Of a DNA stretch of 64,000 bases, positions 5,815 through 50,926 are shown piece after piece. The notes under the pieces are model-generated. The model ran no database searches, had not been told where the DNA came from, and worked only from the letters and a program-made list of their open reading frames with translations. Origin of the DNA: Naegleria gruberi (lineage: Eukaryota). A program made the translations under genes and the position numbers. Position 1 is the first letter of the stretch, and every line of letters begins with the position of its first letter. Location: assembly GCA_000004985.1 (NCBI GenBank), contig GG738850.1; one strand, 5' to 3'.

Positions 5815-8800
5815 TTATAAAAACAAATCATCCACATTGGTATTTGATGATGGTACAGAAGTTGTTTCTGGTTGGACTACAGTGATGAGGTATTGTTCTT
5901 CTACAAAACTGTGAGGAATAACTCTAGCAATATTACTTTGATCCATAAACTTCCATGAAATTCTGAATTGATTCAAATTGTACACGCCAGGGGAGAAGAA
6001 AGTAGCTTGCACCGTTACCTTAACCTCACCAGAGTTTGGTTTCAAATCTTTCATGAAAAATCTAGTTGGGCCAGACCATAAGTAAAAGTTTTGAGGTCCT
6101 GTGGAGGTTGTAGCAACAGTTGTTGGAAGAACTGATTGAGCTCTCAGTTTTGAAGTTCCTGAGGTGGCGAAAGGTGGTAAAAGTTCGAGAGTGATATCAG
6201 TATGCAAGTCAGGAGAAACGTTGCTAATTTTAACATCAAATGCTACAGAGCATGAAGGTTGAGATGATGTAAACTGGTGAATGATTTCTCTTTCGTATTC
6301 TAAATTAACTTCTATTGGACAAATAAGATTTTCTTTGGAAGGGAATTTAGCAGCCATGTGAATTCTCTTTGGTTTTTTAGCATGAGGTAAGAAAGAAACC
6401 TTGCTGTGATAAGTGATACCTAACTCACAAGGACCTCCCCTCCAAATGGCTTGTAAACTTAAACTATTCAATTGTTCTTCAATATCTACAAGTGTGTCAC
6501 CAGAACCTGTAGTGACTGTTTTACCAAAGAATGTCAACTCGTGCTTCTTGGATTCACTAAACAAAAATTCAAGATATGGTCTCTTGGTAGTATCAATTAA
6601 TCTGTCACTATTTCCAGTAGAGAATGATCTGTGGATAAGTTCAACATCAGGTAACTTTTCCTTGGTTGAAATTATTCCAGCCATCTTTTTCTCTTGTTCA
6701 GTATTCTTGAAAATCTTAAGGTACAATGTGTAGGATTCTTTTGGCAAGATTATTATTGATTGACTAGCAACTGGAATAACAGGTGTAATCTCCCAAAGTG
6801 GAGAAACGCTGACTAATTGATCAAGTTGAATGAATTGATCTGGTCTAAGATTGTGAAGCTTTACACCACAAATAAAACTGCCAAGCTCGCAGTAGCTAGA
6901 GTCACAGAAAGTTGTTACTCTTAGTGAGTCCATAACCTTGAGCGTGGTGTGGAAACGATGTAATCTATACTTGAGATCCTCCACTGGTTCAACTGGTTCA
7001 TAATAGAACAAGAACTTGGCATCATGTACACCAGAATAAGATCCTCTCACAAAAACTGGAATTTCAATCTTGCTGCCAGTACTAAGACTCTCAGAAATAT
7101 CATAGTATGTAAAATCACGTTCAATACCATAGGTATTAGAAATGAAGGTACTGTCTCTTTGGGGTGTGTTTGTATCCATAAATTGGAAATTGTTCATATT
7201 TGGATCATCTGATAGGAAATAAATAGATGGGTGGTTAATTTTGAGTTTCAAATTTTTCAAATCTGCTTTTCCAATATTAGTAACAATCATGGTAGTCTTC
7301 TTAAGCTCTCCATTCCACAAGTGATCAATTGATTCAGTAAATTGAACATCCAAAAGTGGAGTAGGATTAATAACCTTAAGAATCAATCTATTATCTTGTT
7401 CGTACTGAACTGATGTTCTGTGTTGTTTGTTTTCATTCAATCTTCTACCCTTAACACTAAAATGCTTGAAGCCTTGAATGTTATTCAAAATCTTCCATCT
7501 CACTCCTCTGATGGAAAGGTCACCAACTTCTGTTGGTGTAATCTTTAATCTTACAATAATAGTATCATTTCCTTGAATAGATACATTAACAGCTTCTGAA
7601 ATAAATCCCTTTTCGTTTTCAGGCAAATTTGGAGACTTGAGAATGGCGTCAAGAGAAATATCTCTCACTTGGATAGGGACAATCAAACTGTTGGAAATCT
7701 TAACATCGACATGAATTGGTTCACCAACAATAGTGGATTCAATCTTTTTCATGTCATTGATTCCCTTCTCCCACTTGAAAAATACAATTGGACCTCTGAC
7801 CTTTCTTACTAAAGTTTCTTCAAGTTTAGCCCATTCTTCATCAGGTATCACATCAGTATAAACTGGTTCTCCATAATAAGAGTTTAATAAAACTCTAACA
7901 TTGGATTGATCTACCTTTGGCATTTCCAAAAAGTCAAACTTTACATCCATCACACCTTTTTGCTTTTGCTCGTTAATGTAGGAAGAAACGGTTTGAGAAA
8001 ATACTTCCATAAACTTGAACTGTTGATCTGGACCTTGCTTACAAACAGTCAAAAATTCATGATAGAACTCAACGCTGGACTTTAAATCCTTCATATCATT
8101 TGTGAGTTTACCCATAGTATAACTCAAATGTTCATAAATTTGAAGCCATTCCCTATTGTTATAAATTCTAAAGGATGTTCTATAGCATCTGAATGAGTGT
8201 TTCATTTGGTCGGTATGACTATATCTGTATCCAGCCAAAATTAAAAATAAGGCAGACTTTCTAGTTAATCTATCCATAGATCCTCTGTAACAAAGTGCTG
8301 TTTGTTCGAAAAAGAGAGCAGCTTGTAAAAAGTTATTTTCATCCACATTTGAAGCTCTAGTGAATAATTCTCCAGCCTTCTTAAATAATGTTTTAGACCT
8401 ATAGTAACAAGCCTGAATTAACAAGAGTCTGAGTGTATAATTTGGTTGATTGGCAGTCTTGTATGCTGTTAGGGCATTATCCATATTACTTTCAATTTCC
8501 TTCTTATTACTGGTTTGAGCTGTTGGACTCAAAAGAGTACAAATGGCCATCATCTCAAGACAACCAGCATAATTCTTAGGTTCCTTCTTGAAATCACCAC
8601 TGATTAGCTTGTAAACTGAATAAGCTTCATCGTATTCACGTAAAAGGAACAACAAGTCAGCTAATCTTCTTAACTGCATTTCTGGTGTAATACCTTCTTC
8701 CTCTGCCTTTGTCTTTTTCGTAAACCAAGATTTAATGGTATTTTTAATACCCTTCTTGTTAGCTAAAACAGTGTTAGAAACTGTTTTAATTTTTGCATCC

Positions 8801-9900
8801 ATTGATGCTACTACTTGATTCACTATAAAATCTACATTATTTGCAATATATTGTACATCTTGTTTGGATAAATAAAATCCATTTGGTTGCATATTGTCCA
8901 AAACATACTTTTGGTATAAGTGACGTCTTGGTAAAACAGGAGACCAAATATCACCAACTAGATTTTCAACTAAATGATCTCTTGAATTGACAATGAGCAT
9001 TCTACATGAAGAGGCTGTATACTTCTCTTTAATCTTGTTGAAAATAGAATTGGCTTTTTCGGAATTTGTTGTTGGTGATGATTGATCGTGAATCATGATT
9101 ACTAAATTCAAAATATCAGGATCCATTGTGAAATCTTTAAACATTTTAGGTGGATTATCAGGATCAAACAATCCTTTCAAAATTTGAATTGGATCTCCAA
9201 CTTCTTCACTTGAAATCACTGATACCACTGCAACTGGATGTAAAAATGTTTCATGTTCCGAAATATTTAAATTTTTGATGAATTCATCCCTGAAAATATC
9301 AAACCATGGCGTATGATCCACTAAATCTTGATTAAGAGCTGACTGGTTTGTTTTTCTCAAGTATTGATCATAGGAATGTTTAATTATATGTCCAATAAAA
9401 TCAGAATGATGTTTTTCTCTGAGATGTACTTCAGTCCTATTAGCAATTCTGTTTCCGTTTTCACCATATTCTTTATGAAGATCCCCAAGAGTAACAAAAT
9501 TAACTGAAAAGTTTTGGAGTGAGATTGCTGAATAATTTACTATTAATTCCACACGTATAAATTGATCATCATTTTATCACACCATCATCAAATAATATTA
9601 TTTAATATTATTATTCTATCATAATGTTGCAAACTTACGCTGTTTGAAAAATTGATATGGACGCAAAAGATCAATAAACTTTAAACCATTCTTTGCACAT
9701 GAAGCCTCCACAGAAGGTGTTGTTCTCACCAAAACTGTTGGTGAAAACATGCTCTCAAACCATCCACTCAATTCATTAGCATTCCGAATAGGAAACGAGT
9801 CCGGAATGTTGAATTTATCTGATGTTTCTCCCAAGTCTGACGATGAGGAATTGGTAATGTTATTTCCCAATGTCATTGTTCTGGTGGGTGCATCAGTCAT
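5815..9900 (-). CDS. TRAPPC8: TRAPP complex subunit 8 (TRAPPC8/Trs85-like)
   Basis: RLADLLFLLREYDEAYSVY and RKSALFLILAGYRYSHTDQMKHSFRCYRTSFRIYNNREW align to conserved TRAPPC8 blocks (KMADLCFLVQHYDLAYSCY and RKYAFHMILAGHRFSKAGQKKHALRCY). The 93-aa ORF 9619..9900 (IPDSF..., LKFIDLLRPY) matches the TRAPPC8 N-terminus and joins in frame through a 99-nt intron at 9540..9638 (gtaagt...aattaatag). Confidence 0.8.
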
Positions 9901-12156: not shown

Positions 12157-14090
12157 TTAGAGATCCAAGCTGACTTCTGAAATTGCATCTTGGATTTCAA
12201 TTTGTTGAATATTCTTTCTACTGGATGGAAAGAAAGAGGGATAATGCTCTTTAAAGATAATGTTTGGGTTTAGCTCCTTTAGTTTATCCCAACTCAGTAC
12301 TTTTGAAGCGTTTTGTCCTTTAGCCAATCTCCTCATATCATCTGAAGTTAGTGGACGATACTCTACAATTTTCAAACTTGGATTCTTTTCAAAAGGATTG
12401 CTTGTGAAAAATACCTTTGGTAGAATAATGTGCTCCAATGAAGGTAGCTTTACAATTTTTGTAAAATAATCCAAAACCAATTGATGCTTTTCAATGTGAA
12501 TAAACGAAAGATTTGGAGAGTTTTCTGAAATGAGCTTTTAACAGTATGTATATCAAGTATATCATAAACAGTCAATCGTTTCAAGTTCTTGAATGATTCC
12601 AGAGCTTGGTGAAGGATTTCCAAATTAGTAACATAGGAATCATAAGGGACATTAATATTTCTAGAATTTTCAACAAGGAATGGATTTTTCATTACCTCTG
12701 TCAGGATATCTCTAACTGGTGGGATTGTATCCTTTGGTAAGAAGAGTTTACTCACCAGCGATCTATTATTATTAATTTCCTTATTATAGAGTGAGTCACT
12801 ACTAATTTCAATGTCGAATTCTTGTAAAAACTGTTTGACCAAGTTTCTGGAGTACCTATTGAGCGAGCTCATTACTAATAGTTGCTTTGTTTGGAGGAAT
12901 GACATGATGAGGCACAAATTATCATCATTTAGTAAACGTAAATGGAATAGAGGAAGAGATTTGGAGAATGGATTAACTAATTTGGCTTTGGCAACATCCA
13001 AATCTTTCTCTTTGATCATTCCCAACCTACCATAAGTTGCTGCTCTCATCAAGTAAGGTTGTTCTCTCTGTTTCAATAGTGGCATTAATGAAATGGATTT
13101 GGAAAAGTCTTCTACAGCTTTTTTCAATTCACCAAGATAATAATAACAGAGTCCTCTATTGTAATATGAGGATTCTACCAATTCTGATGAGTATTCCTCT
13201 CCAAGTTTGATTGCCTTGCTCAGATATGGTACAGCATCTGAATAAAATGTTCCAGAATAATACGAAATACCAGCCCTAATATACAGCAATTCAAGATTGA
13301 AGAAAGTTGTTGGTTTTGATTTGAGAACTGGTTGATCAGATCCCATCATTAAATTGTGGTTATAGAAATTCTTGGCCATATTTGAGAAATTGGAAACACC
13401 AGTTGAATATTGATTAAATCCTTTCGTCCACGAAGTTAACACCTTCTCAACAGGTTTCTTTGCCTCCAATTGCATGGCAAAGAATTGTTCCTCCAAACGA
13501 GTCAAACTCTTCTCCAAATCTTCCCTCCCACTTGTACTATTCTCAGCCAACAGCTGTTCAACATGTTCCCTGTGCTTAATGGCATTCATAAAGTGATGAG
13601 CTGCCTCTTCAAACTCACCCAATCCATCACAACAAACACCCATCAGATATTCAGCCAAATAGAAATGTGAGCTAAACACTTGATCTTGCAATTGTTGAAT
13701 GGATTGACCTGATTGGTAAACAACCTGATCTTTCATAAACGAAAAGGCTTCCATCAAGTCTTGTTTAGCCAACAGAAATTCCTTCATCTCCAACCTAGCA
13801 CAACATCTCTGAATCAACAATTTGTCCAATTCTTCCCTTTCGGATACATTCAACGAATTCAAATCAACAGATTCTTGAATTTCCTTGATAGAAAGTGTTG
13901 ATTTTCCTTCAAGTTTACTCGAAGCAGTCTTGTCAAACTTTTTCCTTGTCAAAACTTCATAAATCTTTAAATTATTGGCACGGATAGATTCGTCCACTGA
14001 TCGAAGATTCTTTCCAAGACCACCAACGGCTTCAATTGCAATTAGGAATGGCAATAGATAGAGAGGTGGACAGTAACAGCCGTGACACAT
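12157..14090 (-). CDS. TPR-repeat protein, possibly with a 3' exon
   Basis: The 546-aa ORF 12450..14090 contains TPR-like repeats (YYNRGLCYYYLGELKKAVEDFSKSISLMP...). The adjacent ORF 12157..12480 joins in frame if a 53-nt intron at 12401..12453 (gtaaag...cacaag) is removed. That splice is unconfirmed. Confidence 0.45.
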
Positions 14091-15870: not shown

Positions 15871-16536
15871 GTGGTAGATTCTTCATATTATTTTGGAAAA
15901 TATTTGGAAAAATATTGTAATAATAAGGAATATTTAATAAGGGCCATCAAGAGGAACTCTAATTTATTTGAAATTCTTTCTCATAAGTTAGATGAAGAGG
16001 ATCGTATGCAACTGACAAAAAACAACTCAAAAGAGGTCAAAGCTACGAATTATTTGACAGATAGAATTGAGAGACTTTCTGATGAAGAAAAGAAAGATAA
16101 AGAGCTAATTATTGGCCACCTCAAAATATCACCCATGTCCTTCCCATTCATTGATCCATCCTTAAAGAACGATATAGATGTGGTAATGGCAACCGTCACC
16201 AAGCATGGAGGTGTTCTGAAGCTTCTCTCTCCAGAAATGAAAAAGAATAAGGAAGTTGTAATGGCTAGCAAACATCAAGGTTTTGCCTATGCAGATAAGA
16301 CACTTCAGAGAGATATACAAGTCATTCTTAATGCAGCACAATATTTTGGAGGAATTTTAGAGCTATTAGATAAGGATTTGAGAAATGATGAGGAAATTGT
16401 TCTTCAATGCATCAAGACAACACCCATGGCATTAGAATTTGCAAGTGAAACTCTGAGAAATAATCCAGAAATTGTGAGAGTAGCTTACAATTTAGATCCA
16501 AAAGTTTTGGAATTTACTGATCTTGGTTCTTTTTAA
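15871..16536 (+). CDS. DUF4116-repeat protein
   Basis: Repeats of the form NDIDVVMATVTKHGGVLKLLSPEMKKNKEVVMASKHQGFAYA..., QRDIQVILNAAQYFGGILELL... and NDEEIVLQCIKTTPMALEFASETLRNNPEIV match the DUF4116 repeat (...ALqyAs.eLrnDkeiVl.Av.qnG.aL...). Confidence 0.6.
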   Translation: MVDSSYYFGKYLEKYCNNKEYLIRAIKRNSNLFEILSHKLDEEDRMQLTKNNSKEVKATNYLTDRIERLSDEEKKDKELIIGHLKISPMSFPFIDPSLKNDIDVVMATVTKHGGVLKLLSPEMKKNKEVVMASKHQGFAYADKTLQRDIQVILNAAQYFGGILELLDKDLRNDEEIVLQCIKTTPMALEFASETLRNNPEIVRVAYNLDPKVLEFTDLGSF

Positions 16537-17949: not shown

Positions 17950-18147
17950 CCGAATGCACTGTCAGATCATCTAATATTAGTTTCCTGACTCTATAAGAAA
18001 CTTCATTTCAAGACTTTGTGATCTTTCAATAGTCCAATTTTGTAATATTTTATCACAGATCTCGAAAAGCTTGAAAAGAGATGTTATTGAATAAGTTTCT
18101 TTAATGTCACTTTCTCCACAACTTTCCAATAAACAAAATCTTTAAAA

Positions 18148-19788
18148 ATGTCTGCAATTCAATTCATTTCTTTAAACTCATCAAGTTGCCATCCACTCCT
18201 CCTCAATCTATCCATCTCAAATCCATTCCTATTCAGAGAACCACTCACTGAATCATCGCTTCAATATGGCCTGTGTCCAGAAACTTATATTGCATTTAGT
18301 TTGGCCACAGTTGTCCTCCTGCTCTATATTGCAACCATGATCATTGCCATGATTGGATTAGTTTGGCAGAGGAAGAAAACTCACATTCAAGCCAGGAGTT
18401 TACCTCTGATTATTGCCAATATGGTGGCTAATTTGACACTAGTTCTATTGGTGACATTGAGAGTGATTGTGAGTAAGAAATTGTATCCGTGTTTCTTACT
18501 TTCATTGACATTCATGTTGTATCCACCATTGTTGACCTTGCCATCGATATTGAGAGGTCTTCGTTTGTATTCGCTTTTTAAGCTCAATTTGAAAAAGAAG
18601 AGAATATTTGGTTCGAAACATGATGAAAGTCTTGAAATGCAACAATTGAATGAATCAAGGAGATCAATAGTGGACGAAAGCTCAACCTCATTGGAAAGCA
18701 TGTCATCCCAACAAACAAATACCAGTTGTATTCTTTCCATATCAGAACCACAATCACTACCTGCAAACACATTCGATCAAATATCGAATAGAAACCAAAC
18801 TATTCAATGCTCTTCCGATGAAGCTCAAAAACCATCCAATCAAATTTCAACTCGAGATAGAGTCCTTATGAGGATGTTTGAATTTCTATCTAGTTACAAA
18901 TTCTTCATTACTGTATATTTAGTTTCGTTTCTAATACATCTGGGATTATGGGCAATTGTTGGTGGAATTGAGATTGGGGTTTACAAGTCAAGTGGTTCTT
19001 GGGTTTTTGTGGAAAGTGGATTCTTTGAAGCATCACATGGTTGCAACATTACTCCAAAGATTCTAATTGTTTTGGGAATTCAAGCAGCTTTCTACATTGC
19101 ATTAGTTGTCATTGTTAATATTTTGTGTTTAGTTTCAGATAGAGACACCTTCAACATCAAATTGGAAGAATTAACTCTCACTGCAGTGTTTGCTGTCATT
19201 ATTATCCTATACACAATTTTTGGGTCAATTCCTGTAATCACAACTCTGGTTGATTATTTTGTGCCATATGTTTTGATATTTGTTGTTTACACATGGTTGG
19301 AAACAGTTATTGGTGTCATTCTACCAGTTTATTATTCAATTAGAGATTCGTCAATTTCTACTCCCAATCAAAACAATTCCACATCTGAAAAAGACCATTC
19401 GCTCAATAACACCATAACCTCCCTCCTACATGATAAGAAAGCATTCGAAATCATTTCAGATTTTGCTAGACGAAGCTATTGTTTGGAAGATGTTTTAGCG
19501 TGGAAAGAAATTCAAAATTTCAAAAAGATGAAAAAACGAAGAATTGCAGCTTTTGAATTTTTGAAAACTTTTCTAGTTTCTGGTTCACCACTCGAGTTGA
19601 ATATTCCAAACGGATATAAAACTCTAAATAGTCTTCAGGAGAGTTTAGATTCGAATATGGAAGAACCACCTGCCAATTTATTTGCTGATATTGAGTTTAA
19701 TTGTTTGTTTAACATGGTTGACTTGTTACAACGTCTCAAAGTTAGGAATGATTACATTGCCAACAAACTTTCTAATATCACTCAATAG
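18148..19788 (+). CDS. Seven-transmembrane protein with C-terminal RGS domain (7TM-RGS)
   Basis: Seven hydrophobic helices by eye (3 + long Ser-rich loop + 4), then an RGS box: FEIISDFARRSYCLEDVLAWKEIQNFKKMKKRRIAAFEFLKTFLVSGSPLELNIP... Confidence 0.7.
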   Translation: MSAIQFISLNSSSCHPLLLNLSISNPFLFREPLTESSLQYGLCPETYIAFSLATVVLLLYIATMIIAMIGLVWQRKKTHIQARSLPLIIANMVANLTLVLLVTLRVIVSKKLYPCFLLSLTFMLYPPLLTLPSILRGLRLYSLFKLNLKKKRIFGSKHDESLEMQQLNESRRSIVDESSTSLESMSSQQTNTSCILSISEPQSLPANTFDQISNRNQTIQCSSDEAQKPSNQISTRDRVLMRMFEFLSSYKFFITVYLVSFLIHLGLWAIVGGIEIGVYKSSGSWVFVESGFFEASHGCNITPKILIVLGIQAAFYIALVVIVNILCLVSDRDTFNIKLEELTLTAVFAVIIILYTIFGSIPVITTLVDYFVPYVLIFVVYTWLETVIGVILPVYYSIRDSSISTPNQNNSTSEKDHSLNNTITSLLHDKKAFEIISDFARRSYCLEDVLAWKEIQNFKKMKKRRIAAFEFLKTFLVSGSPLELNIPNGYKTLNSLQESLDSNMEEPPANLFADIEFNCLFNMVDLLQRLKVRNDYIANKLSNITQ

Positions 19789-20087
19789 ACATCTATTGAC
19801 ACTTCGAATACGCTGTTCGAATACATTTGTATTATTGAAAATATTAAATTGTCTATTCATGTTTTAAATCATTGAAAGAGTCCAGTATTGTAATTAATAT
19901 TTTTAAATTAGATGAAAGATTGTTATTTAACATGATATCCTTAACAAGACTTTTGACATAATAAAGCCACATGCTCAATATTTTTGACAGCCACTAATTC
20001 GAATTTGCTCCAAATAAAATATTGACATTTGACCTCTGCCAATACTGTGTGCCTCTAAACATCGCCACTGCGAAAACAACAAACAAA

Positions 20088-21737
20088 ATGTCTCTAAACA
20101 GCACGTTTCCACTCGCTTCCACATTCAACTCTACAAGTTGTCATCCTCTCCTGTTAAACATGTCCATAACAAATCCTATGATATTTCGTGAGGAATTTTC
20201 ACAGTCTTCACTTCAGTATGGATTGTGTCCGGAAACTTATATTGCCCTATCGATTGCATCCTTTGTCCTTTTCGTTTATTTAGTCACGACATGTATTGCC
20301 ATGATTGGATTAGTTTGGCAGAGGAAGAAAACTCACATTCAAGCCAGAAGTTTACCTCTAATTATTGCCAATACGGTGGCCAACTTGACACTGGTTCTGT
20401 TGGTGGCTCTGAGAGTGATTGTGAGTAAGAAATATTATCCATGTTTCTTACTTTCATTGACTTTCATGTTGTATCCACCATTGTTGACCTTGCCATCGAT
20501 ATTGAGAGGATCACGGCATTACTTTTTATTTAGACTAAACTTGATGAAGAAGAAGGTTTTTGGAACGAGTGTTGATGAATTGTCAGAGTTGCAATCTATT
20601 TCTTCGATGAGTGTTTCTGGAAAGTTGGAACATAGGAGGTCAAATTCTAGCTCATCACTTGGTCAACTCTTTTCCAGAACTAATAGTTTTAGTACAACAA
20701 CATCTGGGCCAACAAGTAGTACAACAGCTGGTCAAGATAATAACAATGCTTCATCACAAGAATTTCTTCAAATTGATGAAAAACAAACTAATTTGGAAGA
20801 TATCTTATCGAGAAGGGATCAATTATTGATGAGATTTTATGAATTTATGGCCAGTTACAAGTTTTTCATCACTGTGTATGTGGTATCATTTCTAATACAT
20901 CTTGGATTATGGGCAATTGTTGGTGGAATTGAGATTGGAGTTTACAATTCAAGTGGTTCTTGGGTTTTTGTGGAAAGTGGATTCTTTGAAGCATCACATG
21001 GTTGCAATATTACTCCAAAGATTCTAATTGTTTTGGGAATTCAAGCAGCTTTCTATTTGGTTTGGATGTTTGTTATTAATATTTTGTGTATTCTTTCAGA
21101 TAGAGATACATTTAACATCAAATTGGAAGAATTGATTTTGACTGTGATTTTAATAGTAGCTTTGATTTTGTACACGATTTTTGGTTCAATTCCTGTAATC
21201 ACAACTCTGGTTGATTATTTTGTACCTTACGTTTTGATATTTGTTGTTTATTCATTGTTGGAAACAATTATTGGAGTCATTCTTCCAGTTTATTACTCAA
21301 TTAGAGATACAATGAATGAAACAAATCATGATTCGGATAAATCCGCCAGTCATATGGTCAAAGCTCTTCTCAAGGAAAAGAAATCTCTTGATAAGATTTC
21401 AGATTTTGCTAGACGAAGCTATTGTTTGGAAGATGTATTGGCCTGGAAAGAAATTCAAAACTATAAGAAAATGAAAAAACGAAAGCAAGCTGCTCTGGAC
21501 TTTATCAAAACCTATTTACTTCCTGGAGCTCCTCTCGAGTTGAATATTCCAAAGAGTGCCGCAACATTGGCAAATTTGAGGGAACAAATGGATAGCTCCA
21601 CTGATGAACCTCCTGTTAATTTGTTTGATGTTGTGGAACATCAATGTTTATTTAACATGACTGATTTGTTAAATAGATTGGTGGTTAAGGATGAATATAT
21701 TGCTCAAAAGATTGCTGAGTGTACTGGTAATAAGTAG
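20088..21737 (+). CDS. 7TM-RGS protein, tandem paralogue of 18148..19788
   Basis: Same architecture and collinear sequence as the upstream gene. Some nucleotide blocks are identical (e.g. gattggattagtttggcagaggaagaaaactcacattcaagccag). The RGS box is FARRSYCLEDVLAWKEIQNYKKMKKRKQAALDFIKTYLLPGAPLELNIP. The start is taken at ATG 20088. Confidence 0.7.
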   Translation: MSLNSTFPLASTFNSTSCHPLLLNMSITNPMIFREEFSQSSLQYGLCPETYIALSIASFVLFVYLVTTCIAMIGLVWQRKKTHIQARSLPLIIANTVANLTLVLLVALRVIVSKKYYPCFLLSLTFMLYPPLLTLPSILRGSRHYFLFRLNLMKKKVFGTSVDELSELQSISSMSVSGKLEHRRSNSSSSLGQLFSRTNSFSTTTSGPTSSTTAGQDNNNASSQEFLQIDEKQTNLEDILSRRDQLLMRFYEFMASYKFFITVYVVSFLIHLGLWAIVGGIEIGVYNSSGSWVFVESGFFEASHGCNITPKILIVLGIQAAFYLVWMFVINILCILSDRDTFNIKLEELILTVILIVALILYTIFGSIPVITTLVDYFVPYVLIFVVYSLLETIIGVILPVYYSIRDTMNETNHDSDKSASHMVKALLKEKKSLDKISDFARRSYCLEDVLAWKEIQNYKKMKKRKQAALDFIKTYLLPGAPLELNIPKSAATLANLREQMDSSTDEPPVNLFDVVEHQCLFNMTDLLNRLVVKDEYIAQKIAECTGNK

Positions 21738-21839: not shown

Positions 21840-22870
21840 TTATTCAAGACGAGATTTGACATCCTTTTCCAATGCTAACAGATACTGATCGACATGTTCC
21901 TCTCCAAATACTTCTCTCATCTTGTCGACTAACTGAAATAAATACTCAGAGTTTTTACCACTTGGCCCAATAGCAACTGAGATAATTTTACCATCGTCAC
22001 TCAATCCATGAATTGTAGGACCCAAAAATTCGGTATTATCATCATGATTGGTAGAACCCACATATACAATTACATTCTTAATTTCACTCTCTCCATTTTC
22101 ATGAATTAAATTACAAGGAATAAACTTTCTATAATATCCTCCCTTTTCTCTATAATCCAAATCCTTGAAAATCTCAATTGCTTCCTCATTTGAAATCAGA
22201 TAACACATTCCATATAGATCTGTATCTTTTCTTTCAAATTCAGCCTCTTCTCTTGCAACATGTGTATCAGATCCAAACTTGGTCACTTGCTCTCTATAAT
22301 CTGAATCATTCATTATTGTCAAAACTCTGCCAGGAAATTCAAATGATCCTCTGTGATCTCTACTCTGCTGCCAAAATCTTCTCTAATTCTCATATTTGAA
22401 TATAATTCATAAATTCTCGAACCTACCTTGTATCCTTTAATAAATCCCTTACATTTATGTTTATAAGACCATCCAACTTTCCAAATCAAACTTCCATAAC
22501 CAAACAAATAAATTCCTCCATCCTTCTTAACCTGTTCATCATGATTAATCAATTGTTCAATATCCACTTCATGATCCTTTGCTTTTAAATGTAATTTGTA
22601 CATTTCCTCGAGTGATAATTCAGAATTCAATGATGCTTGTTGAACATTAACATCATCAGCTTCCGAAAGTGGTGCAAGTTCTTCCGAATTGTTTAATAAC
22701 ATTTTTTTGAAAGATTCTTGTTTGTGATGATTACTTGTAGAAAGTAACTTGAAGAATCTGGTTTGATGATATTGTTGTTTGGAAGTGGTAATTTGATTTC
22801 TCAGATTGAGTAAATTGTGCTGACGAGTTGTTAATAATGAAATGAAGAGAATCTTTCTGCTGCAATTCAT
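21840..22870 (-). CDS. CHAC: ChaC-family gamma-glutamylcyclotransferase
   Basis: Exon 1 carries FGYGSLIWK...KGYK. A 44-nt intron at 22383..22426 (gtaggt...aattag) joins it to exon 2, which carries RRFWQQSRDHRGSFEFPGRVLT, matching the ChaC motifs YGSL and RRFWQGS.DHRGTPE.PGRVVTL. Confidence 0.8.
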
Positions 22871-23216: not shown

Positions 23217-24653
23217 ATGGCCAAAGGTTCTAGATTGTTGGACTTGCTCCGACCAGCCATGGCAATTTTGCCAGAAGTTGCAAAGCCATCCAAGACTGTT
23301 AAATTCCAAGAAAAGGTCTTGTGGACTGCTGTTGCTCTCTTTATTTATTTAGTCTGTTGCCAAATTCCAGTATATGGAATTCGTAATGCTTCATCAAGCG
23401 ATCCATTGTATTGGATGAGAGTTATTTTGGCTTCTAACAGAGGTACTTTGATGGAACTCGGTATTTCACCAGTCATCACTGCTGGTTTGATTATTCAATT
23501 GCTCAGTGGTGCTAGATTAATTGATGTCGATGAAAATAGTCAAGAAGATCAAATTTTGCTTAACGGTGCTCAAAAGTTCTTCGGTCTCATCATGACCATT
23601 GTTGAAGCTGTTGCTTATGTTGCTTCAGGAATGTACGGTGATGTCAGAGATCTTGGTTTGGTTACTGCTTTGTTGATTGTCTTGCAATTGTTCGTTGCTG
23701 GTATTGTCTGTTTGCTCCTCGATGAATTGTTGCAAAAGGGTTATGGTTTGGGAAGTGGTATTTCCTTGTTCATTGCTACTAACATTTGTGAAACTATTAT
23801 TTGGAAGTCATTCTCACCATCCACCATTAACACTGGTAGAGGTACTGAATTTGAAGGTGCTATCATTGCTCTTTTCCACATGTTGATTACTCGTAGTGAT
23901 AAGGTTAGAGCTTTGAAGGAAGCTTTCTATCGTCCAAATCTTCCAAATATTACCAACTTGTTGGCTACCATCTTGGTCTTCTTGATTGTCATTTACTTCC
24001 AAGGATTCCGTGTTGAATTGCCATTGAGATCCTCCAGACAATCCGGTAGTGCTGGTGCTTATCCAATTCGTTTGTTCTACACTAGTAACATGCCTATCAT
24101 TTTGCAAACTGCTTTGGTTTCTCAAATGTTCTTGTTCTCTCAAGTATTATACAAGAGATTTGGAGACAATATTCTTATAGCCTTGTTGGGTAGATGGGAA
24201 ACTCCACAATATGGTCAATCTGTTCCAGTTGGTGGTTTGATCTATTACATTTCTCCTCCAGGTAACTTGAATGAAATGTTGGTCGATCCAATTCACGCCA
24301 TCTTGTACATTGCTTTCATGCTTGGTTCATGTGCTTTGTTCTCTAGAATTTGGATTAACGTTTCTGGTTCTTCTCCAAAGGATGTTGCCAGACAACTTAA
24401 GGAACAAGGTTTGAACATTGCTGGTCACAGAGACGATCCTAAGGAAATGATTAACACTTTGAACAAGTACATTCCAACTGCTGCTGCTGTCGGTGGTATG
24501 TGTATTGGTGCTCTCACTGTCATTGCTGACTTCTTGGGTGCTATTGGTTCTGGTACTGGTATTCTCTTGGCTGTTGGTATCATTTATCAATACTTTGAAA
24601 TGTTCGCTAAGCAACAAGATGAATTGGATATTCCTTTCTTGAGTGGACAATAA
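23217..24653 (+). CDS. SEC61A: Sec61 alpha protein translocon subunit
   Basis: Full-length 478 aa, intronless. It shows strong Sec61alpha/SecY homology throughout ([37 protein letters not shown]..., [16 protein letters not shown], 10 TM). Confidence 0.95.
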
Positions 24654-31598: not shown

Positions 31599-32343
31599 AT
31601 ATTTCTGTATTGTATAAATCTGCACTTGATGATCGACTTCAACTTTAAACATATAAATGGGAATGTTTACTTGGTGTTTTCGAAATATTATTGTTTATAA
31701 TTGATATACACGATGCCCTCTCTCGTTTGGATAATTATCATTGTCTGATTTTTTGTAATATTTGAGAAAACACTTGAACTAGTCAAACTTACAAAAAAGC
31801 CCTTGACTACTTTTCTTAATAAGGATATATGTTGACAAGTTGAAATTGCTCCTGTATGGTACTACTACCCTATAATATCACCGAATACATTTGTTTTGTG
31901 TGGAATATCGTCCTTCTTGAGTAAAGTTGGAGTGATAATGTTGATTTTCTAGGTTGAAATAGAATCCAATTCGACAGTTAATGGTATGTTTTAAAATAAT
32001 TTTAATAAAAGTCTGAATCACCTCTTTCAGTACTTACTTCGAAGCATTATATAATAGGTTGAGTGAAATGGATGAATATGGAGAAGAAACTTTGTACATT
32101 ATCAAATATTGTTATGAAATGATTGATACAATCCCACCAGGCTTAATTATTAGAGTAATGAATGAGGCACATAAACATGAAATTAAGGAATTGAATGATA
32201 TTGCTTGTGATCAAGTGGAAATTACAGAAATTAATTTTGAAGAGTTCATTAATAGTCTTTACGACCATGTAGAAGATGGCTTTGAAATACTGTCTCATTT
32301 GCAAACATTGAAGTGCTACTTAGAACTACGTTTAAATAAAAAA

Positions 32344-33445
32344 ATGACAACAAATCCATTGCCAATTCTTGTGCTTGATAATGGTTCAGGATTGAGCAAA
32401 GCAGGCTTTTCGGGAGAAGATGCTCCTCGTTCTGTGTTTCCAACAGTGATAGGAAGACAACTTCTCAACAAAAAGAACGTTAGATGTATTGATGCCTTTG
32501 TTGGAGAGGAGGCAATAAAGAGAGATCTCTCCTCTGTAAAAAAGTATCCGATTGAGAGAGGAATTATAAAGAATTTTGATGATATGGAAGTGATTTGGAA
32601 TCATACATTTTGTAATGAATTGAAGGTTAATTCGGAAAATTGTTGTGTAATGTTGAGTGAAGTTTGTTTGAATCCAAAGGAGAAGCGTGAAAAGATGACT
32701 GAAATATTGTTCGAAACTTTTAATGTTTCCGCTCTTTATTGTTTAATGCAGTCAGTTTTGTCTCTGTATGCGTCTGGAAGAGTTACTGGACTAGTGATTG
32801 ATTTAGGTGATGGTGTTTCACATACTGTCCCAGTTTATGAGGGATATGCTTTTTTATTATCAAGTTCAAGATTGGATTTAGCTGGAAGAAATTTGACAGA
32901 TTACTTAACTACATTATTATTGGAATCAGGGCATAATTTTAGTTCTTCAATTGGAAATTCTAATATTTCAGGACATGAAATTGTAAGGAATATTAAGGAA
33001 AAGTTATGTTATATTGCTTTGGATTTCGATGAAGAATCAAAGAAATCAATTTCATATGAATTACCAGATGGCAGCAAAATAACAGTTGGAAATGAGCGGT
33101 TCAGATGTCCAGAAATATTATTCGAGCCAAATTATTTAGGAATTGAGCGAGATGGAATTCATAAGCTGGCTGCTAGACATTGATTTGAGAGGAGAATTAT
33201 ATTCGAATATTTTACTTTCGGGGGGATCATTCATGCTCGAAGGATTATCTGAAAGACTACACAAAGAACTGACAACCTTAGTACCCATCTCTACCAACAT
33301 TAATATTATTTCTCCTCCAGAGAGAAAGCATTCAGCATGGATTGGTGGAAGCTTACTCTTCCTTTCCAACATTTCAGAGTATGTGGATAAGAAAATACGA
33401 CTATGAAGAGAGTGGCCCTTCAATAATACATAGGAAATCATTGTA
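32344..33445 (+). pseudogene. Actin-like gene with two reading-frame disruptions (pseudogene or assembly error)
   Basis: Roughly 55-60% identity to actin by eye across [32 protein letters not shown]..., [12 protein letters not shown]..., [12 protein letters not shown]..., LSGGSFM..., [16 protein letters not shown]... and [12 protein letters not shown]. The conserved blocks lie in three frames. One frame change near 33160-33180 is accompanied by loss of about 4-5 codons. A second (+1) lies in an A-run at 33393..33396. Confidence 0.55.
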
Positions 33446-34899: not shown

Positions 34900-36849
34900 T
34901 CAAACTTTCTTGTTATTAGTACACTTATTGGGAGAACAAGAACATTTTGATGTACAAGGCTTTCCAGCTTTCTTACATGGACACGCTTTCTTACAGGTGG
35001 AACTCTTGGAACAAGTGCATTTTCCGATCATTCCTTTGCTTGGTGGTGGTGGCTTGGTTTCTTTGTTAGCCTTTCGCAACTCTACTCGCCTAACTTTGTA
35101 CGTTTTAGATTGTTTTCTGATTTTATCTTGTTCATATTTTGCATCCAATTTACGAGCATCAATTTTGGACATTATGAATGGAGCTTCGGTAAATTTTTGA
35201 ATTTTCCTTAATTGACAAAATTTTCCCATTAAGCGTTGCCCTATTGCTAAATCAGCTCTTCCACAATAATTATGACTAAAGTCCAATGTTTTTGGCGTGG
35301 TGTGACAAATGGTACTATGTAATGATTCATTGGTTTGGCTGTTATATTCAGAGTTACAAAATTTGTGACAATATTTGATCCTCTTGTCAAATATTTCTTG
35401 CACTATGATTGCTTCTTCTTTTGTAATTAATTTTTGACTTTTTGTTGTTCCAGGACAACCTTCATCGCATTTTGAGTGATCATTTTGTAAATGATATGGA
35501 TATGCTGTTAATAATTTTTTCAACTTCTTCTCAGCTTCTGAATCAGAGAGAGAACTTGTCATTTTGATACATTTTCTGAATGATTCAACCACAATGACTG
35601 CAACACGAGGAATTCTCTCTTTAGCTTCTTTTCTAACGTTTCTGACAACGTGATTGGGATCTAATTTTTCTTCGGCTGTTGGTTCAAGTTTCTTGATTAT
35701 GGTGGAAACAGTCGAGTCCTTATCATGCACATATGAATTGATCTTGAAATGCAAAAGTCCATGACCTGTTAGTGGAAAAGATTTATGTTGCAATGATGTG
35801 ATAGCCATTTTGCATGCCTCTGGTTCCATTAATTTGGAAGCGCCAACAAATATATCTAGACAACCTTTTAAGGCAATGCTACGCTTCTTTAAAGTTCTCT
35901 TCTTAATCACATGTGATCTTTCAATAATTTTTTTGAATTTAGTTTCGAACACAATTAATGTACATTCGTGAGCATTTCGTCTTGAAGAATATCTTGCATC
36001 AACAGAAATATCCAAAGGGATAGCAAAACCACAGACGTACAAATAAATTATTGCCACAACTTCATTCCCTAAATAATAAGACTTTCCACAAATCTTAATT
36101 TCACAAAGCATGAACAAGGAAACAGCTGCCTTCATTCTCTGATATGCCACAGAAAACAATTCCTCGTTCATTTCTTGATTTAACAATCTACTCATATTGT
36201 TCCATAACTTGTTAGCATATTGATAATAAACTCCTTTGCTAACTAACGGTAATTCCACAACCTTTGAAAATGTTGACAATGATTCATAAGTACCTGATGA
36301 CAGTTCGTACGACTGAATGATATGTTTGTTCAGTTTAAGATCTTTTGGACACGTTCTGAAAGTGTACGTCTTCTTACAATTGCTGCAAGAAAAAATCAAC
36401 GTCTGCTCAAAGCCATACTTGGTAATACTTTTAAAAGGTACATCACTATTATGGCAACAAGTGCAATGCTTTGGTTTAATACATTGAATGAGGTACTCTG
36501 TTGGTATGATGGATAGATTGGAATCTATTTTCTCAATGATTTCATTTCTGTCAAGTGGTGCTATAGTTCCAATAGTGGTTTCAGAATGTAAATGAAATTG
36601 ATAAGATTGATTTTGAGTAGAGGTATCGTGTTGCACTGTTTGAATTGTCCTCAAGTTTGAGTTTGTGAATTTTTTCTCCATTTCATGATATTTGTCAAGA
36701 AATTGCTTATAATGTCGACAACAAATAGTGCCATTCAGTTCCTTGTGGTGAATAGGAACTTTGCCAACAAATCCATTCTTTACATTATAGAATCTTGGTG
36801 ACAAAACACCTGATTTTACTACGCACACAAAACACAACTCTCTTTTCAT
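34900..36849 (-). CDS. Cys-rich protein with THAP-like N-terminal zinc finger and CXC-like C-terminus (possibly transposon-derived)
   Basis: The N-terminus has CFVC...(about 33 aa)...CCRH, a C-x2-C...C-x2-H spacing like a THAP finger. Further Cys/His clusters follow. The C-terminal tail is CTCSKSSTCKKACPCKKAGKPCTSKCSCSPNKC. The intronless 649-aa ORF sits in an otherwise empty 2.5-kb interval. Confidence 0.3.
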   Translation of the reverse strand: MKRELCFVCVVKSGVLSPRFYNVKNGFVGKVPIHHKELNGTICCRHYKQFLDKYHEMEKKFTNSNLRTIQTVQHDTSTQNQSYQFHLHSETTIGTIAPLDRNEIIEKIDSNLSIIPTEYLIQCIKPKHCTCCHNSDVPFKSITKYGFEQTLIFSCSNCKKTYTFRTCPKDLKLNKHIIQSYELSSGTYESLSTFSKVVELPLVSKGVYYQYANKLWNNMSRLLNQEMNEELFSVAYQRMKAAVSLFMLCEIKICGKSYYLGNEVVAIIYLYVCGFAIPLDISVDARYSSRRNAHECTLIVFETKFKKIIERSHVIKKRTLKKRSIALKGCLDIFVGASKLMEPEACKMAITSLQHKSFPLTGHGLLHFKINSYVHDKDSTVSTIIKKLEPTAEEKLDPNHVVRNVRKEAKERIPRVAVIVVESFRKCIKMTSSLSDSEAEKKLKKLLTAYPYHLQNDHSKCDEGCPGTTKSQKLITKEEAIIVQEIFDKRIKYCHKFCNSEYNSQTNESLHSTICHTTPKTLDFSHNYCGRADLAIGQRLMGKFCQLRKIQKFTEAPFIMSKIDARKLDAKYEQDKIRKQSKTYKVRRVELRKANKETKPPPPSKGMIGKCTCSKSSTCKKACPCKKAGKPCTSKCSCSPNKCTNNKKV

Positions 36850-48487: not shown

Positions 48488-50926
48488 ATGGTGACTCATG
48501 TACAGAAGAATAAGATATTAACTGAGGCGCAAGTCCTTAATACCTCCTTGACACAATCAAAGGAAAATGTAGTAATAAGCAAGATGCTCGAAGAACACAA
48601 ACAAAATAATGAAGCAAAACTGTTACAACTAGAGACGGGTAAAAAGAAGAGTATCATCAAGTCATTCATCTCACGTGTATTCTCTATCAAACTTTGTCTT
48701 TCTCTGATTATTATGTTATTGATTATTATTTCCACAATATCAATTTTTGTTGCTACGATTGTTTTGCAAGGTAAGATAACTTCATCATTTTTATCCTTAA
48801 TAATAATAATTATTATTATTAATACTATGCAGGCGCATCCATTGATGAATCAACACAAAAACTAGGAAATCAAATCAAGCTTAGAGCTGCTGAATATTTA
48901 AATAACTTTATTAGATATCCATTCCAAATTACGGAGGGTATTGTCAGAAGAATATCAAAATTAGATAATTTGAGCCCTGATATGGATGACTGGGGAAGGA
49001 GAATTGAAGAATTAATTTCTAGTGTTGCAAGCTTTGAAATCAGCTATGCTTCTTTCTTAGCAGATGATTATTTCTTTGGTGTTTCAAGAAACACTGATTC
49101 CCCAACACTTACCTATCAACTGGAATACTATTCGAATGGCATGTATTATAAGCCAATATATTTGGATAAGAACTTTGACTATACACTGACTAAAGAACAA
49201 AAAGGAACAATGTCGATGGACATATTTGAATGGTGGACAACTGCAAAACAAACCAAGAAGAAGAGTTTTAGCAAATTGTATGCCACAAACAAGAGCTCTG
49301 TTTGGCTTACTGCCTCTCATCCTGTCGTTAATGCAACCACAGGAGAGCTTGCATATTTAATTACAACAGATCTTACAATGCTCGACCTTAGTTCATATTT
49401 GGAAAGTATTGTAATCAGTCCTAATTCATATATTTATGTCATTTCAGCAGCAACATCTGAAATGATTGCATGTTCTAAATCATCAAACGAAACATTATAT
49501 GTTTACAATACTCTTGCTCCACAACATCTTGAAAGAAAGAGGTTGTATGAAAGTTCAAATCATATAGTTAAAGCTGTTGGTGAAACTTTACGTAAAAAGT
49601 ATAATAACAATCTTCAAAATTTTACAGGTACTGAAAGAGTAGTGGTGGATGGAAATACGTATCTTCTTAACATGGTAGCTGTTGAAGACAAGCTCAATTT
49701 AGGGTTGAATTGGAATGTTCTTGTTATCATGTCAGTAGATGACTTTATGAGTTCTGTCTATCTAATCAGAAATATTGTGCTGATAGCTGATGGTGTTATT
49801 TTGTGTTTGTCTTTAGTTATTGCAATTGTTGTCAGTATGTTGATCACAAATCCTCTTGTTTCTCTTGGAAATGATATGGATGCTCTTGGTAAAGGCGAGT
49901 TCAAGGTAATGAAAAAGAAAAAATTGATTCTTTTCCATGAAGTCAAAAAGCTCAGAAACCACTTCTCTAAAATGTCATCTGCAGTTGATGGTTTCATGAA
50001 GTATGTTCCAAGAGAAATTGTCTCCTCTTTCATTGGAAGTGATGCAAAAACTTTCAAATTGGGTGTTGAATCAAAGCACATTGCTATTCTCTTTTCAGAT
50101 ATCAAGAACTTTACAACTATTTGTGAAGCAACAGAACCAACTGTTTTGATTACTATTCTTGGAAAATATTTTGAATTGACTTCAGAAGTTGTATATAGAA
50201 ATAGGGGAGTTTTAGACAAGTATATTGGTGACTCTTTGGTAAGTTTGACTAATTTGATTTAAATCTAATAAGAGTTTGTAGATGGCACTCTTTGGTGCTC
50301 CAGATACCTATGAAAATTATGTCTTTCATGGTTGTAATGCAGCTTTTGAAATGCAAACAGCTCTTCAACCATACAATGATCAATTACATAAGGAGGGAAG
50401 AGATACATTGTACACTAGAGTTGGAGTTAGTTGTGGAGATGTTTTGGTTGGTAACATTGGTTCATCATTTCGTTTGTCCTATACTTGTTTGGGAGACTCT
50501 GTCAATCTTTCTTCGAGATTGGAAGGTTTGAACAAGGTATATGGAACAAATATCATGGTTTCTGAATTCTGCTATGAAATTGTTAAAGACCTCTTCCTGT
50601 TCAGAACTCTGGATGTGGTTGCTGTCAAGGGTAAAGTGAATGGTGTTAAGGTGTATGAAATTGTTGGTAGAAAGTGGTCTCCCTTCCAAGGTGATTCTGT
50701 CACTGTTTCTCAAGAAAGGGTTGAATATTGTAGAACATACAATACTATTATTGAAGATTTGTACTTTAAGAAAAAGTTTGGTGTGGCTGAAAAAGCATTC
50801 AGAGATTTTGCTGATAGGTATGAGCAAGATTCAGCAGCTCTTGAAATGGCTTACAGATGCAGAAGCTATGTAAATAATCCTCCTCCAGATTCTTGGAATG
50901 GTGTATATTTTGCAAAAGACAAGTAA
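48488..50926 (+). CDS. Receptor-type class III adenylyl/guanylyl cyclase
   Basis: Three exons: 48488..48770, 48833..50238 and 50282..50926. The introns are 62 nt (gtaaga...tatgcag) and 43 nt (gtaagt...tttgtag). Architecture is a signal-anchor, a roughly 350-aa extracellular region, a TM, then a cyclase domain. Splicing restores the catalytic motif across exons (KYIGDSL|MALFGAP), with FSDIKNFT upstream. Confidence 0.8.

What the first reader, a model, noticed from the sequence alone, without database searches (positions are those of the whole stretch)
18148..21737. Tandem pair of 7TM proteins with C-terminal RGS boxes (GPCR-like G-protein regulators)
Two adjacent same-strand genes each encode seven predicted transmembrane helices followed by a canonical RGS domain. 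This architecture is best known from plant AtRGS1-type proteins, which combine receptor and GAP in one polypeptide. The paralogues keep stretches of 100% nucleotide identity across the TM1-TM3 region but diverge in the intracellular Ser-rich loop. That pattern suggests recent duplication and/or gene conversion. In a protist, a 7TM-RGS points to a self-activating G-alpha cycle regulated by these proteins, as in plants.
Basis: partly seen in the sequence, partly recalled or inferred. Interest (0 to 1): 0.6.

Follow-up and report, generated by a model that had tools for sequence, protein, structure and literature searches.

The report
Tandem Naegleria 7TM-RGS receptor genes

Summary

Synonymous divergence between the two copies is mosaic. 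dS is 0.06-0.3 in the helix cores and above 1 (saturated) elsewhere. That fits an old duplication with segmental gene conversion, not a recent duplication.

The kind is already known. Bosch et al. 2022 described 28 7TM-RGS proteins in N. fowleri, showed GAP activity for some, and found self-activating G-alpha subunits. These two genes belong to a short (~550 aa) subfamily that has not been assayed. It is found in Naegleria, other Heterolobosea, Anaeramoeba and a cercozoan.

Most likely function: a membrane receptor whose cytosolic RGS domain accelerates GTP hydrolysis on G-alpha. The ligand, the G-alpha partner and the regulation are inferred, not shown. Homology of the 7TM part to AtRGS1 was not tested. 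Interest is low to moderate.

The parts
18148..19788 (+). Gene A: 7TM-RGS protein, 546 aa, single exon (= P0002, N. gruberi predicted protein)
20088..21737 (+). Gene B: 7TM-RGS protein, 549 aa, single exon, ATG at 20088 (= P0001, 100% identity)
20238..21320 (+). Gene B seven-helix bundle (aa 51-411). N-terminus is outside, with N-glycosylation sequons. Conserved Cys119 (top of TM3) and Cys306 (ECL2). PxxY motif in TM7 (Pro400).
18286..19359 (+). Gene A seven-helix bundle (aa ~47-404), by alignment to gene B
20574..20795 (+). Gene B intracellular loop 2 core (aa 163-236): Ser/Thr-rich, predicted disordered, divergent between the paralogues and across the family
   Evidence: pLDDT below 50
18613..18846 (+). 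Gene A intracellular loop 2 (aa ~156-233): Ser/Thr-rich and divergent
21336..21728 (+). Gene B RGS domain (aa 417-547). Glu448, Asn486, Asp526 and Arg530 align to RGS4 Glu87, Asn128, Asp163 and Arg167.
19393..19782 (+). Gene A RGS domain (aa ~416-545; Pfam match 424-518)
18343..18563 (+). High-identity tracts 1a and 1b against gene B 20295-20515 (end of TM1, ICL1, TM2, TM3). 92-95% nt identity, dS ~0.33.
18920..19099 (+). High-identity tract 2 against gene B 20881-21060 (TM4, ECL2, TM5). 94% overall, with perfect runs of 35, 59 and 47 nt. dS 0.06 over A codons 266-315.
19208..19347 (+). High-identity tract 3 against gene B 21169-21308 (end of TM6, ECL3, TM7). ~92% identity, dS ~0.33.
19445..19519 (+). 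High-identity tract 4 against gene B 21388-21462 (first RGS helices, FARRSYCLEDVLAWKEIQ). 89% identity with a 41-nt perfect run.

Best explanation
These are two tandem, lineage-specific paralogues of the Naegleria and heterolobosean 7TM-RGS family. Each is a plasma-membrane receptor-like protein. It has a short glycosylated extracellular N-terminus and a GPCR-fold seven-helix bundle that is closest in shape to class C GPCRs and lacks a Venus-flytrap domain. It also has a long disordered Ser/Thr-rich second intracellular loop and a cytosolic C-terminal RGS domain.

The RGS domain most likely binds the switch regions of GTP-bound G-alpha subunits and accelerates GTP hydrolysis. The protein would therefore hold membrane G-alpha in the off state. 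An extracellular or membrane cue sensed by the helix bundle, and/or phosphorylation of the Ser/Thr-rich loop, would then modulate or remove that GAP activity.

Shown here: the architecture, the fold, conservation of the G-alpha contact residues, and purifying selection. Shown in the literature for other Naegleria family members only: GAP activity and self-activating G-alpha partners. Inferred: the ligand, the G-alpha partner, regulation through the loop, and the direction of regulation.

The two copies come from an old duplication in the N. gruberi lineage. They are kept similar in the helix cores and the first RGS helices by segmental gene conversion. The N-terminus, ICL2, TM5-TM6 and most of the RGS domain have diverged freely.
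For: Identity and organism.

RGS domain:
- Pfam RGS is above the gathering score in both genes and matches in 26 of 26 aligned family members.
- The residues aligned to RGS4 Glu87, Asn128 and Arg167 are invariant, and the one aligned to Asp163 is more than 90% conserved, across 26 family members. The mapping to RGS residues comes from the HMMER alignment to RGS10.
- Foldseek matches RGS16, RGS1, RGS8 and RGS4 at target TM-scores of 0.67-0.77.

Seven-helix bundle:
- The AF2 model has pLDDT 78.5.
- One family member hits Pfam 7tm_3 co-linearly at E = 1.2e-6.
- Lys/Arg are enriched in the predicted cytosolic loops, and N-glycosylation sequons lie in the predicted extracellular parts.

Selection and history:
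- dN/dS is 0.32 overall.
- dS is mosaic, 0.06-0.33 against 1.0-3.3. SSCF P = 0.00055 and Fisher P = 1e-9.
- In TM5-TM6, gene B is closer to the third paralogue P0003 than to gene A.
- In a neighbour-joining tree, A, B and P0003 form an N. gruberi clade sister to one N. lovaniensis protein.

Family and literature:
- The family has 258 cluster representatives at 50% identity. Named members come from N. fowleri, N. lovaniensis, Acrasis, Pharyngomonas, Anaeramoeba and Euglypha.
- N. fowleri has 28 7TM-RGS proteins, with GAP activity and selective G-alpha binding shown for some, and G-alpha5 and G-alpha7 are self-activating (PMC9283941).
- N. gruberi has 229 RGS proteins (PMC3971589) and 44 G-alpha subunits (PMC8584482).
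Against: No member of this short (~550 aa) subfamily has been assayed. The tested Nf 7TM RGS1-4 are much longer, with RGS boxes at residues ~1036-1678 and EGF, lectin or GPS ectodomains.

The Pfam RGS scores are only 4-7 bits above threshold. The position aligned to RGS4 Asn88 is Asp in both genes and varies across the family.

No expression or localisation data were examined. No ligand-binding domain is evident. The gene-conversion inference rests on two sequences, because DNA of the third paralogue could not be retrieved.
Confidence: 0.8

Rival explanations
1. Bifunctional receptor. The class C-like helix bundle is a true ligand-activated GPCR (a GEF) for slow-exchanging G-alpha subunits. 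The tethered RGS box then sharpens the kinetics or spatially focuses the signal, rather than acting as a constitutive brake on self-activating G-alpha.
For: The bundle has a genuine GPCR fold, closest to G-protein-coupling class C receptors. It keeps a TM7 PxxY motif (Pro400 invariant) and near-invariant charged residues at the cytosolic ends of TM3 (Arg140) and TM6 (Glu347). N. fowleri has slow-exchanging G-alpha subunits that also engage 7TM-RGS proteins, and very few conventional GPCR candidates.
Against: No GEF activity has been reported for any 7TM-RGS protein in the papers read here. The resemblance of Arg140 and Glu347 to the class C ionic lock comes from memory and was not checked in coordinates. 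Fold similarity does not demonstrate coupling.
Confidence: 0.15
2. The RGS box is a non-catalytic scaffold or docking module, as in GRKs, axin or sorting nexins, and the proteins do not act as GAPs.
For: The RGS domain is divergent (Pfam 28-31 bits, 18-21% identity to R4 RGS domains). Six of 26 family members also touch the RGS-like profile weakly. Many RGS domains in expanded families have lost GAP function (stated in PMC3971589).
Against: The residues that contact the G-alpha switch regions are invariant or nearly so across 26 diverse members. These are the residues aligned to RGS4 Glu87, Asn128, Asp163 and Arg167. That conservation would not be expected for a scaffold-only domain. The nearest folds are GAP-active R4, RZ and R7 RGS domains.
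Confidence: 0.05
3. About the mosaic only. The near-identical tracts reflect stronger purifying selection, including on codons or the mRNA, in the helix cores of a uniformly aged duplicate, with no gene conversion.
For: The low-dS tracts coincide with the most conserved protein segments. Only two sequences could be compared at the DNA level. The longest-run permutation test alone is marginal (P = 0.047).
Against: Selection on the protein does not lower synonymous divergence 10- to 50-fold (dS 0.06-0.33 against 1-3.3). The first RGS helices are 80% identical in protein yet have dS ~1, so conservation and dS are not simply coupled. Clustering of synonymous identity is significant (SSCF P = 0.00055). 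The TM5-TM6 segment groups B with P0003 rather than with A.
Confidence: 0.2

Closest known systems
Naegleria fowleri 7TM RGS proteins (Bosch, Jeck & Siderovski 2022, PMC9283941)
   Same: Same genus and same architecture: seven helices followed by a C-terminal RGS box. The closest named N. fowleri relative is P0007 (FDP41_012977, 559 aa, 35% identity, co-linear over the whole length). Family members are GAPs for Naegleria G-alpha subunits, including self-activating ones.
   Different: The four cloned Nf proteins are more than 1200 aa long and carry EGF, lectin or GPS ectodomains. Genes A and B have only a ~45-aa N-terminus and a long Ser/Thr-rich ICL2. Their subfamily has not been tested biochemically. 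The tandem arrangement and conversion mosaic are specific to N. gruberi.
Arabidopsis AtRGS1 (plant 7TM-RGS)
   Same: Domain order is the same (7TM then RGS) and the RGS is cytosolic. The presumed logic is also the same: a receptor-GAP restraining G-alpha, with Ser phosphorylation as a plausible regulatory handle.
   Different: Homology of the 7TM parts was not established here, because no AtRGS1 sequence was at hand and the AFDB fold library was unavailable. No plant protein was seen among the 20 family representatives whose sources were looked up. From my own knowledge, AtRGS1's regulatory phosphosites are C-terminal to the RGS box; here the Ser/Thr-rich region is ICL2. Plants usually have a single copy, whereas Naegleria has dozens.
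Class C GPCR 7TM domains without a Venus-flytrap domain (GPR156, GPR158, GPRC5D) and the GPR158-RGS7-Gbeta5 complex
   Different: Sequence identity is only 7-12%. The family profile finds no class C protein in the PDB by sequence, and the single Pfam 7tm_3 hit is below the gathering score. In GPR158 the RGS is a separate polypeptide.
Trichomonas vaginalis 7TM-RGS / 5TM-RGS (Bradford et al. 2013; PMC3865004)
   Same: A protist membrane RGS that accelerates GTP hydrolysis on self-activating G-alpha.
   Different: Trichomonas lacks G-beta-gamma and GPCRs. Naegleria has G-beta, G-gamma and both kinetic classes of G-alpha. The sequence relationship was not examined.

Membership tests
RGS domain (Pfam PF00615) | Profile match above the curated gathering score | tested here: met
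   28.1 and 31.0 bits against a cut-off of 23.9. All 26 aligned relatives match.
RGS domain (Pfam PF00615) | All-helical RGS fold | tested here: met
   In the AF2 model, aa 417-547 are helical. Foldseek matches RGS16, RGS1, RGS8 and RGS4 at target TM-scores of 0.67-0.77 with probability 1.00.
RGS domain (GAP-competent subclass) | G-alpha switch-contact residues equivalent to RGS4 Glu87, Asn128, Asp163 and Arg167 | tested here: met
   Glu448, Asn486 and Arg530 are invariant and Asp526 is more than 90% conserved in 26 sequences. Positions were mapped through the HMMER alignment to RGS10. RGS4 numbering is from my own knowledge of the RGS4-Gi-alpha1 structure. The Asn88 position is Asp.
RGS domain (GAP-competent subclass) | Measured GAP activity or AlF4-dependent G-alpha binding | not testable with these tools
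   Shown only for other, longer N. fowleri 7TM-RGS proteins (PMC9283941).
7TM-RGS architecture (Naegleria / protist family) | Seven transmembrane helices N-terminal to the RGS box, with the RGS cytosolic | tested here: met
7TM-RGS architecture (Naegleria / protist family) | Full-length co-linear homology to named Naegleria 7TM-RGS proteins | tested here: met
   P0006 (N. lovaniensis) E = 1.6e-107 and P0007 (N. fowleri) E = 3.5e-93, each covering query residues ~5-542.
AtRGS1-type plant 7TM-RGS | Homology of the 7TM region to AtRGS1 | not tested
   The AFDB library was unavailable and no AtRGS1 sequence was at hand. None of the 20 hits whose sources were looked up was a plant protein. I file these genes under 'works like', not 'member of'.
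Class C (glutamate-type) GPCR 7TM, Pfam 7tm_3 | Profile match above gathering score | tested here: not met
   No hit for genes A or B at E up to 1. One relative (P0073) scores 28.8 against a cut-off of 33.5. The family profile finds no class C chain in the PDB.
Class C (glutamate-type) GPCR 7TM, Pfam 7tm_3 | Fold closest to class C 7TM bundles | tested here: met

The most novel reading that the evidence does not exclude
The short heterolobosean 7TM-RGS subfamily is an ancient class C-like GPCR bundle fused in cis to an RGS domain. It would be a single-chain counterpart of the animal GPR158-RGS7 arrangement, shared by Heterolobosea, Anaeramoeba and Cercozoa. In N. gruberi, tandem copies are held together by segmental gene conversion in the helix core. 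The disordered ICL2 and the G-alpha-facing RGS surface diverge, giving paralogues with the same sensor but different G-alpha specificity or regulation.
Probability: 0.3. Interest if true: 0.4.

Novelty: new member of a known kind. Interest (0 to 1): 0.2.

Why it matters
The finding adds little that is conceptually new. 7TM-RGS receptor-GAPs are established in plants, Trichomonas and Naegleria.

Three modest points may be useful:
- It defines a compact ~550-aa subfamily that would be easier to express than the >1200-aa proteins studied so far.
- It gives structural evidence that the helix bundle is class C-like, which bears on how receptor-GAPs and GPCRs are related.
- It offers a clean example of segmental gene conversion between tandem receptor genes. 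Such conversion can mislead duplication dating and phylogenies of these large families.

Tried and rejected
- I tried to fetch the DNA of the third paralogue P0003 for a three-sequence conversion test; it is not on record.
- I searched the word-indexed protein collection with the 26-sequence alignment. It returned only the four N. gruberi proteins already known.
- I tried the AFDB fold library in order to compare with AtRGS1; it was not available.
- A sequence profile of the 7TM part against PDB sequences gave no meaningful hit, only YidC at E = 0.34. The class C link therefore rests on fold, not sequence.
- Bradford 2013 and Anantharaman 2011 are not held in the paper library.
- I checked the neighbouring genes for a functional link. 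They are TRAPPC8, a TPR protein, a DUF4116 protein, ChaC and Sec61-alpha, none related.
- I considered that the 546-aa ORF at 12450-14090 might be a third copy. It is a TPR protein.
- I considered recent duplication as the reason for the identity tracts. I rejected it because dS is saturated outside them.
Full report
**What is there.** The window is AT-rich eukaryotic DNA (GC ~33%) from Naegleria gruberi. Gene B translated from the ATG at 20088 is 100% identical to an N. gruberi 'predicted protein' of 549 aa. Gene A (18148-19788) is identical to another of 546 aa on the same 707,703-bp scaffold. The ORF finder's start at 20022 is a TTG artefact. Both genes are single uninterrupted ORFs on the + strand, separated by 300 bp. 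Their flanks do not align. Independent repeat finding recovers five co-linear blocks of 71-91% identity with 1943-1961 bp spacing.

**Checking the architecture: RGS domain.**
- Pfam RGS (PF00615) matches the C-terminal ~100 residues of both proteins above the curated cut-off, at 28.1 and 31.0 bits against 23.9.
- A single-sequence search of PDB sequences finds RGS10, RGS2, RGS5 and RGS18 weakly (E from 0.009). The alignment places Glu448, Asn486, Asp526 and Arg530 of gene B on the RGS residues that, in RGS4 numbering, are Glu87, Asn128, Asp163 and Arg167 (residue roles from the RGS4-Gi-alpha1 structure, my own knowledge).
- In an alignment of 26 full-length relatives, Glu448, Asn486 and Arg530 are invariant and Asp526 is more than 90% conserved.
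- In the AlphaFold2 model built from that alignment, aa 417-547 form an RGS-type helical bundle. Foldseek matches that part to RGS16, RGS1, RGS8 and RGS4 at target TM-scores of 0.67-0.77.

**Checking the architecture: seven-helix bundle.**
- Hydropathy gives seven peaks in each protein.
- The AlphaFold2 model has mean pLDDT 78.5 and pTM 0.73. It has seven long helices (51-77, 89-112, 119-~150, 257-289, 310-336, 342-367, 383-411) and a disordered stretch at 163-236.
- At the sequence level this link is weak. Genes A and B hit no 7TM Pfam family. One relative hits 7tm_3 co-linearly at E = 1.2e-6 but below the gathering score. The family profile finds no GPCR among PDB sequences.
- The topology is N-terminus outside and RGS inside. 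Lys/Arg are concentrated in ICL1 and ICL2. N-glycosylation sequons lie in the N-terminus and ECL2. A Cys at the top of TM3 and a Gly-Cys in ECL2 are invariant, in the position of the usual GPCR disulfide.

**The duplicates.**
- The proteins are 65% identical, and overall dN/dS is 0.32, so both are under purifying selection.
- Divergence is strongly mosaic. Nei-Gojobori dS is 0.06 over A codons 266-315 (TM4-ECL2-TM5). It is about 0.3 over TM1end-TM3, TM4-TM5 and TM6end-TM7. It is 1.0-3.3, effectively saturated, in the N-terminus, ICL2, TM5end-TM6 and the RGS domain.
- Perfect nucleotide runs of 59, 53, 47, 47, 41, 38 and 35 nt occur inside the low-dS tracts. Tract coordinates are listed in the parts.
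- Among codons for identical amino acids, 29 of 173 differ in the cores against 59 of 116 elsewhere (Fisher P = 1e-9). A Sawyer-type sum-of-squared-fragments permutation gives P = 0.00055. The longest-run test alone is marginal (P = 0.047).
- At the protein level, in TM5end-TM6 gene B is closer to a third N. gruberi paralogue on another scaffold (P0003, 68%) than to gene A (60%). In the cores A and B are 91-93% identical, against 61-76% for either to P0003.
- A neighbour-joining tree puts A, B and P0003 in one clade, sister to a single N. lovaniensis protein.
- The simplest reading is an old duplication in the N. gruberi lineage, followed by repeated short-tract gene conversion between the tandem neighbours. 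'Recent duplication' is not supported. Purifying selation alone is a weaker alternative, because it should not depress synonymous divergence this much.

**The family.**
- An exhaustive phmmer search of 1.84 billion cluster representatives gives 258 hits at E up to 1e-3, and 63 at E up to 1e-30. Most are co-linear across 7TM and RGS.
- Named members are from N. gruberi, N. lovaniensis and N. fowleri, the heteroloboseans Acrasis kona and Pharyngomonas kirbyi, the metamonad Anaeramoeba flamelloides, and the cercozoan Euglypha rotunda.
- Conserved features are: a Cys and a 'G-x-C-P-[DE]-T' motif before TM1; 'H-I-x-A-R' in ICL1; 'F-P-C' at TM3; 'L-P-T-x-x-R' at the cytosolic end of TM3; a hypervariable ICL2; 'G-C' in ECL2; 'D-R-D-T-W-x-I-K-x-E' in ICL3/TM6; 'L-P-V-x-Y' in TM7; and 'A-R-R-S-Y-C-P-E', 'P-L-E-L-N' and 'D-M-T-D-x-F-x-R' in the RGS box.

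**What is known.**
- 7TM-RGS proteins as receptor-GAPs are established for Arabidopsis AtRGS1 and Trichomonas (PMC3386157, listed; PMC3865004). They are reported in many 'bikonts' and some opisthokonts (PMC3971589).
- For Naegleria specifically, Bosch, Jeck and Siderovski (2022, PMC9283941) reported 28 7TM-RGS proteins in N. fowleri. They showed GAP activity and AlF4-selective binding of three RGS domains to particular G-alpha subunits, self-activating behaviour of G-alpha5 and G-alpha7, and slow-exchanging G-alpha subunits that also engage these RGS domains.
- The four proteins they cloned have RGS boxes at residues ~1036-1678 and large ectodomains. The short subfamily found here has therefore not been assayed.
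- N. gruberi is credited with 229 RGS-domain proteins (PMC3971589) and 44 G-alpha subunits (PMC8584482).

**Mechanism.** Best supported (confidence ~0.8): a membrane receptor-GAP whose cytosolic RGS domain accelerates GTP hydrolysis on membrane G-alpha. The helix bundle would serve as sensor and the disordered Ser/Thr-rich ICL2 as a likely phosphoregulatory or adaptor-binding element. The architecture, fold, contact residues and selective constraint are shown here. GAP activity is shown only for other family members. The ligand, the partner and the regulation are inferred. Rivals are a bifunctional GPCR-plus-RGS (~0.15) and a scaffold-only RGS (~0.05).

**Verdict.** I class the genes as new members of a known kind, interest ~0.2. 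The small additions are the class C-like fold of the bundle, the definition of a compact subfamily, and the conversion mosaic.

Noticed in passing
window 34900-36849 (-): A 649-aa ORF with a Mutator-like transposase domain (PF20700, E = 1.3e-18). It may be a MULE-type transposon or a domesticated copy in N. gruberi.
   Followed up: no
window 15871-16536 (+), 51063-52502 (+), 52522-53682 (+): Three proteins carry DUF4116 repeats. One is fused to a protein kinase domain, and the last two are adjacent. The first lies 1.6 kb upstream of gene A.
   Followed up: no
window 48970-50262 (+), perhaps continuing in 50282-50926: An ORF ends in the start of an adenylate/guanylate cyclase catalytic domain (PF00211, E = 2.9e-5). 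It is probably one exon of a member of the very large Naegleria cyclase family, which is another possible output of G-protein signalling.
   Followed up: no
window 21840-22870 (-): A ChaC-like gamma-glutamylcyclotransferase is split over two overlapping ORFs (21840-22322 and 22319-22870). This implies a short intron or a frameshift, immediately downstream of gene B and convergent with it.
   Followed up: partly
P0003 (N. gruberi, another scaffold of 309,005 bp): The third close paralogue (54% identity to gene B) is annotated as 416 aa and stops exactly where the RGS box begins. It is either a truncated gene model or an RGS-less 7TM copy. Its DNA could not be retrieved.
   Followed up: partly
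window 18120-18147 and 20065-20087: Both genes have a similar A-rich 'CAA[TC]AAACAAAAT' string just upstream of or overlapping the start codon, although the rest of the 5' flanks does not align. It may be a shared leader or initiation context, or just an AT-rich coincidence.
   Followed up: no
window 23217-24653 (+), 5815-9552 (-), 32059-33183 (+): Housekeeping neighbours: Sec61-alpha (recognised from its translation, not profile-checked), TRAPPC8/Trs85 and an actin-family protein. None has an evident link to the 7TM-RGS pair.
   Followed up: no
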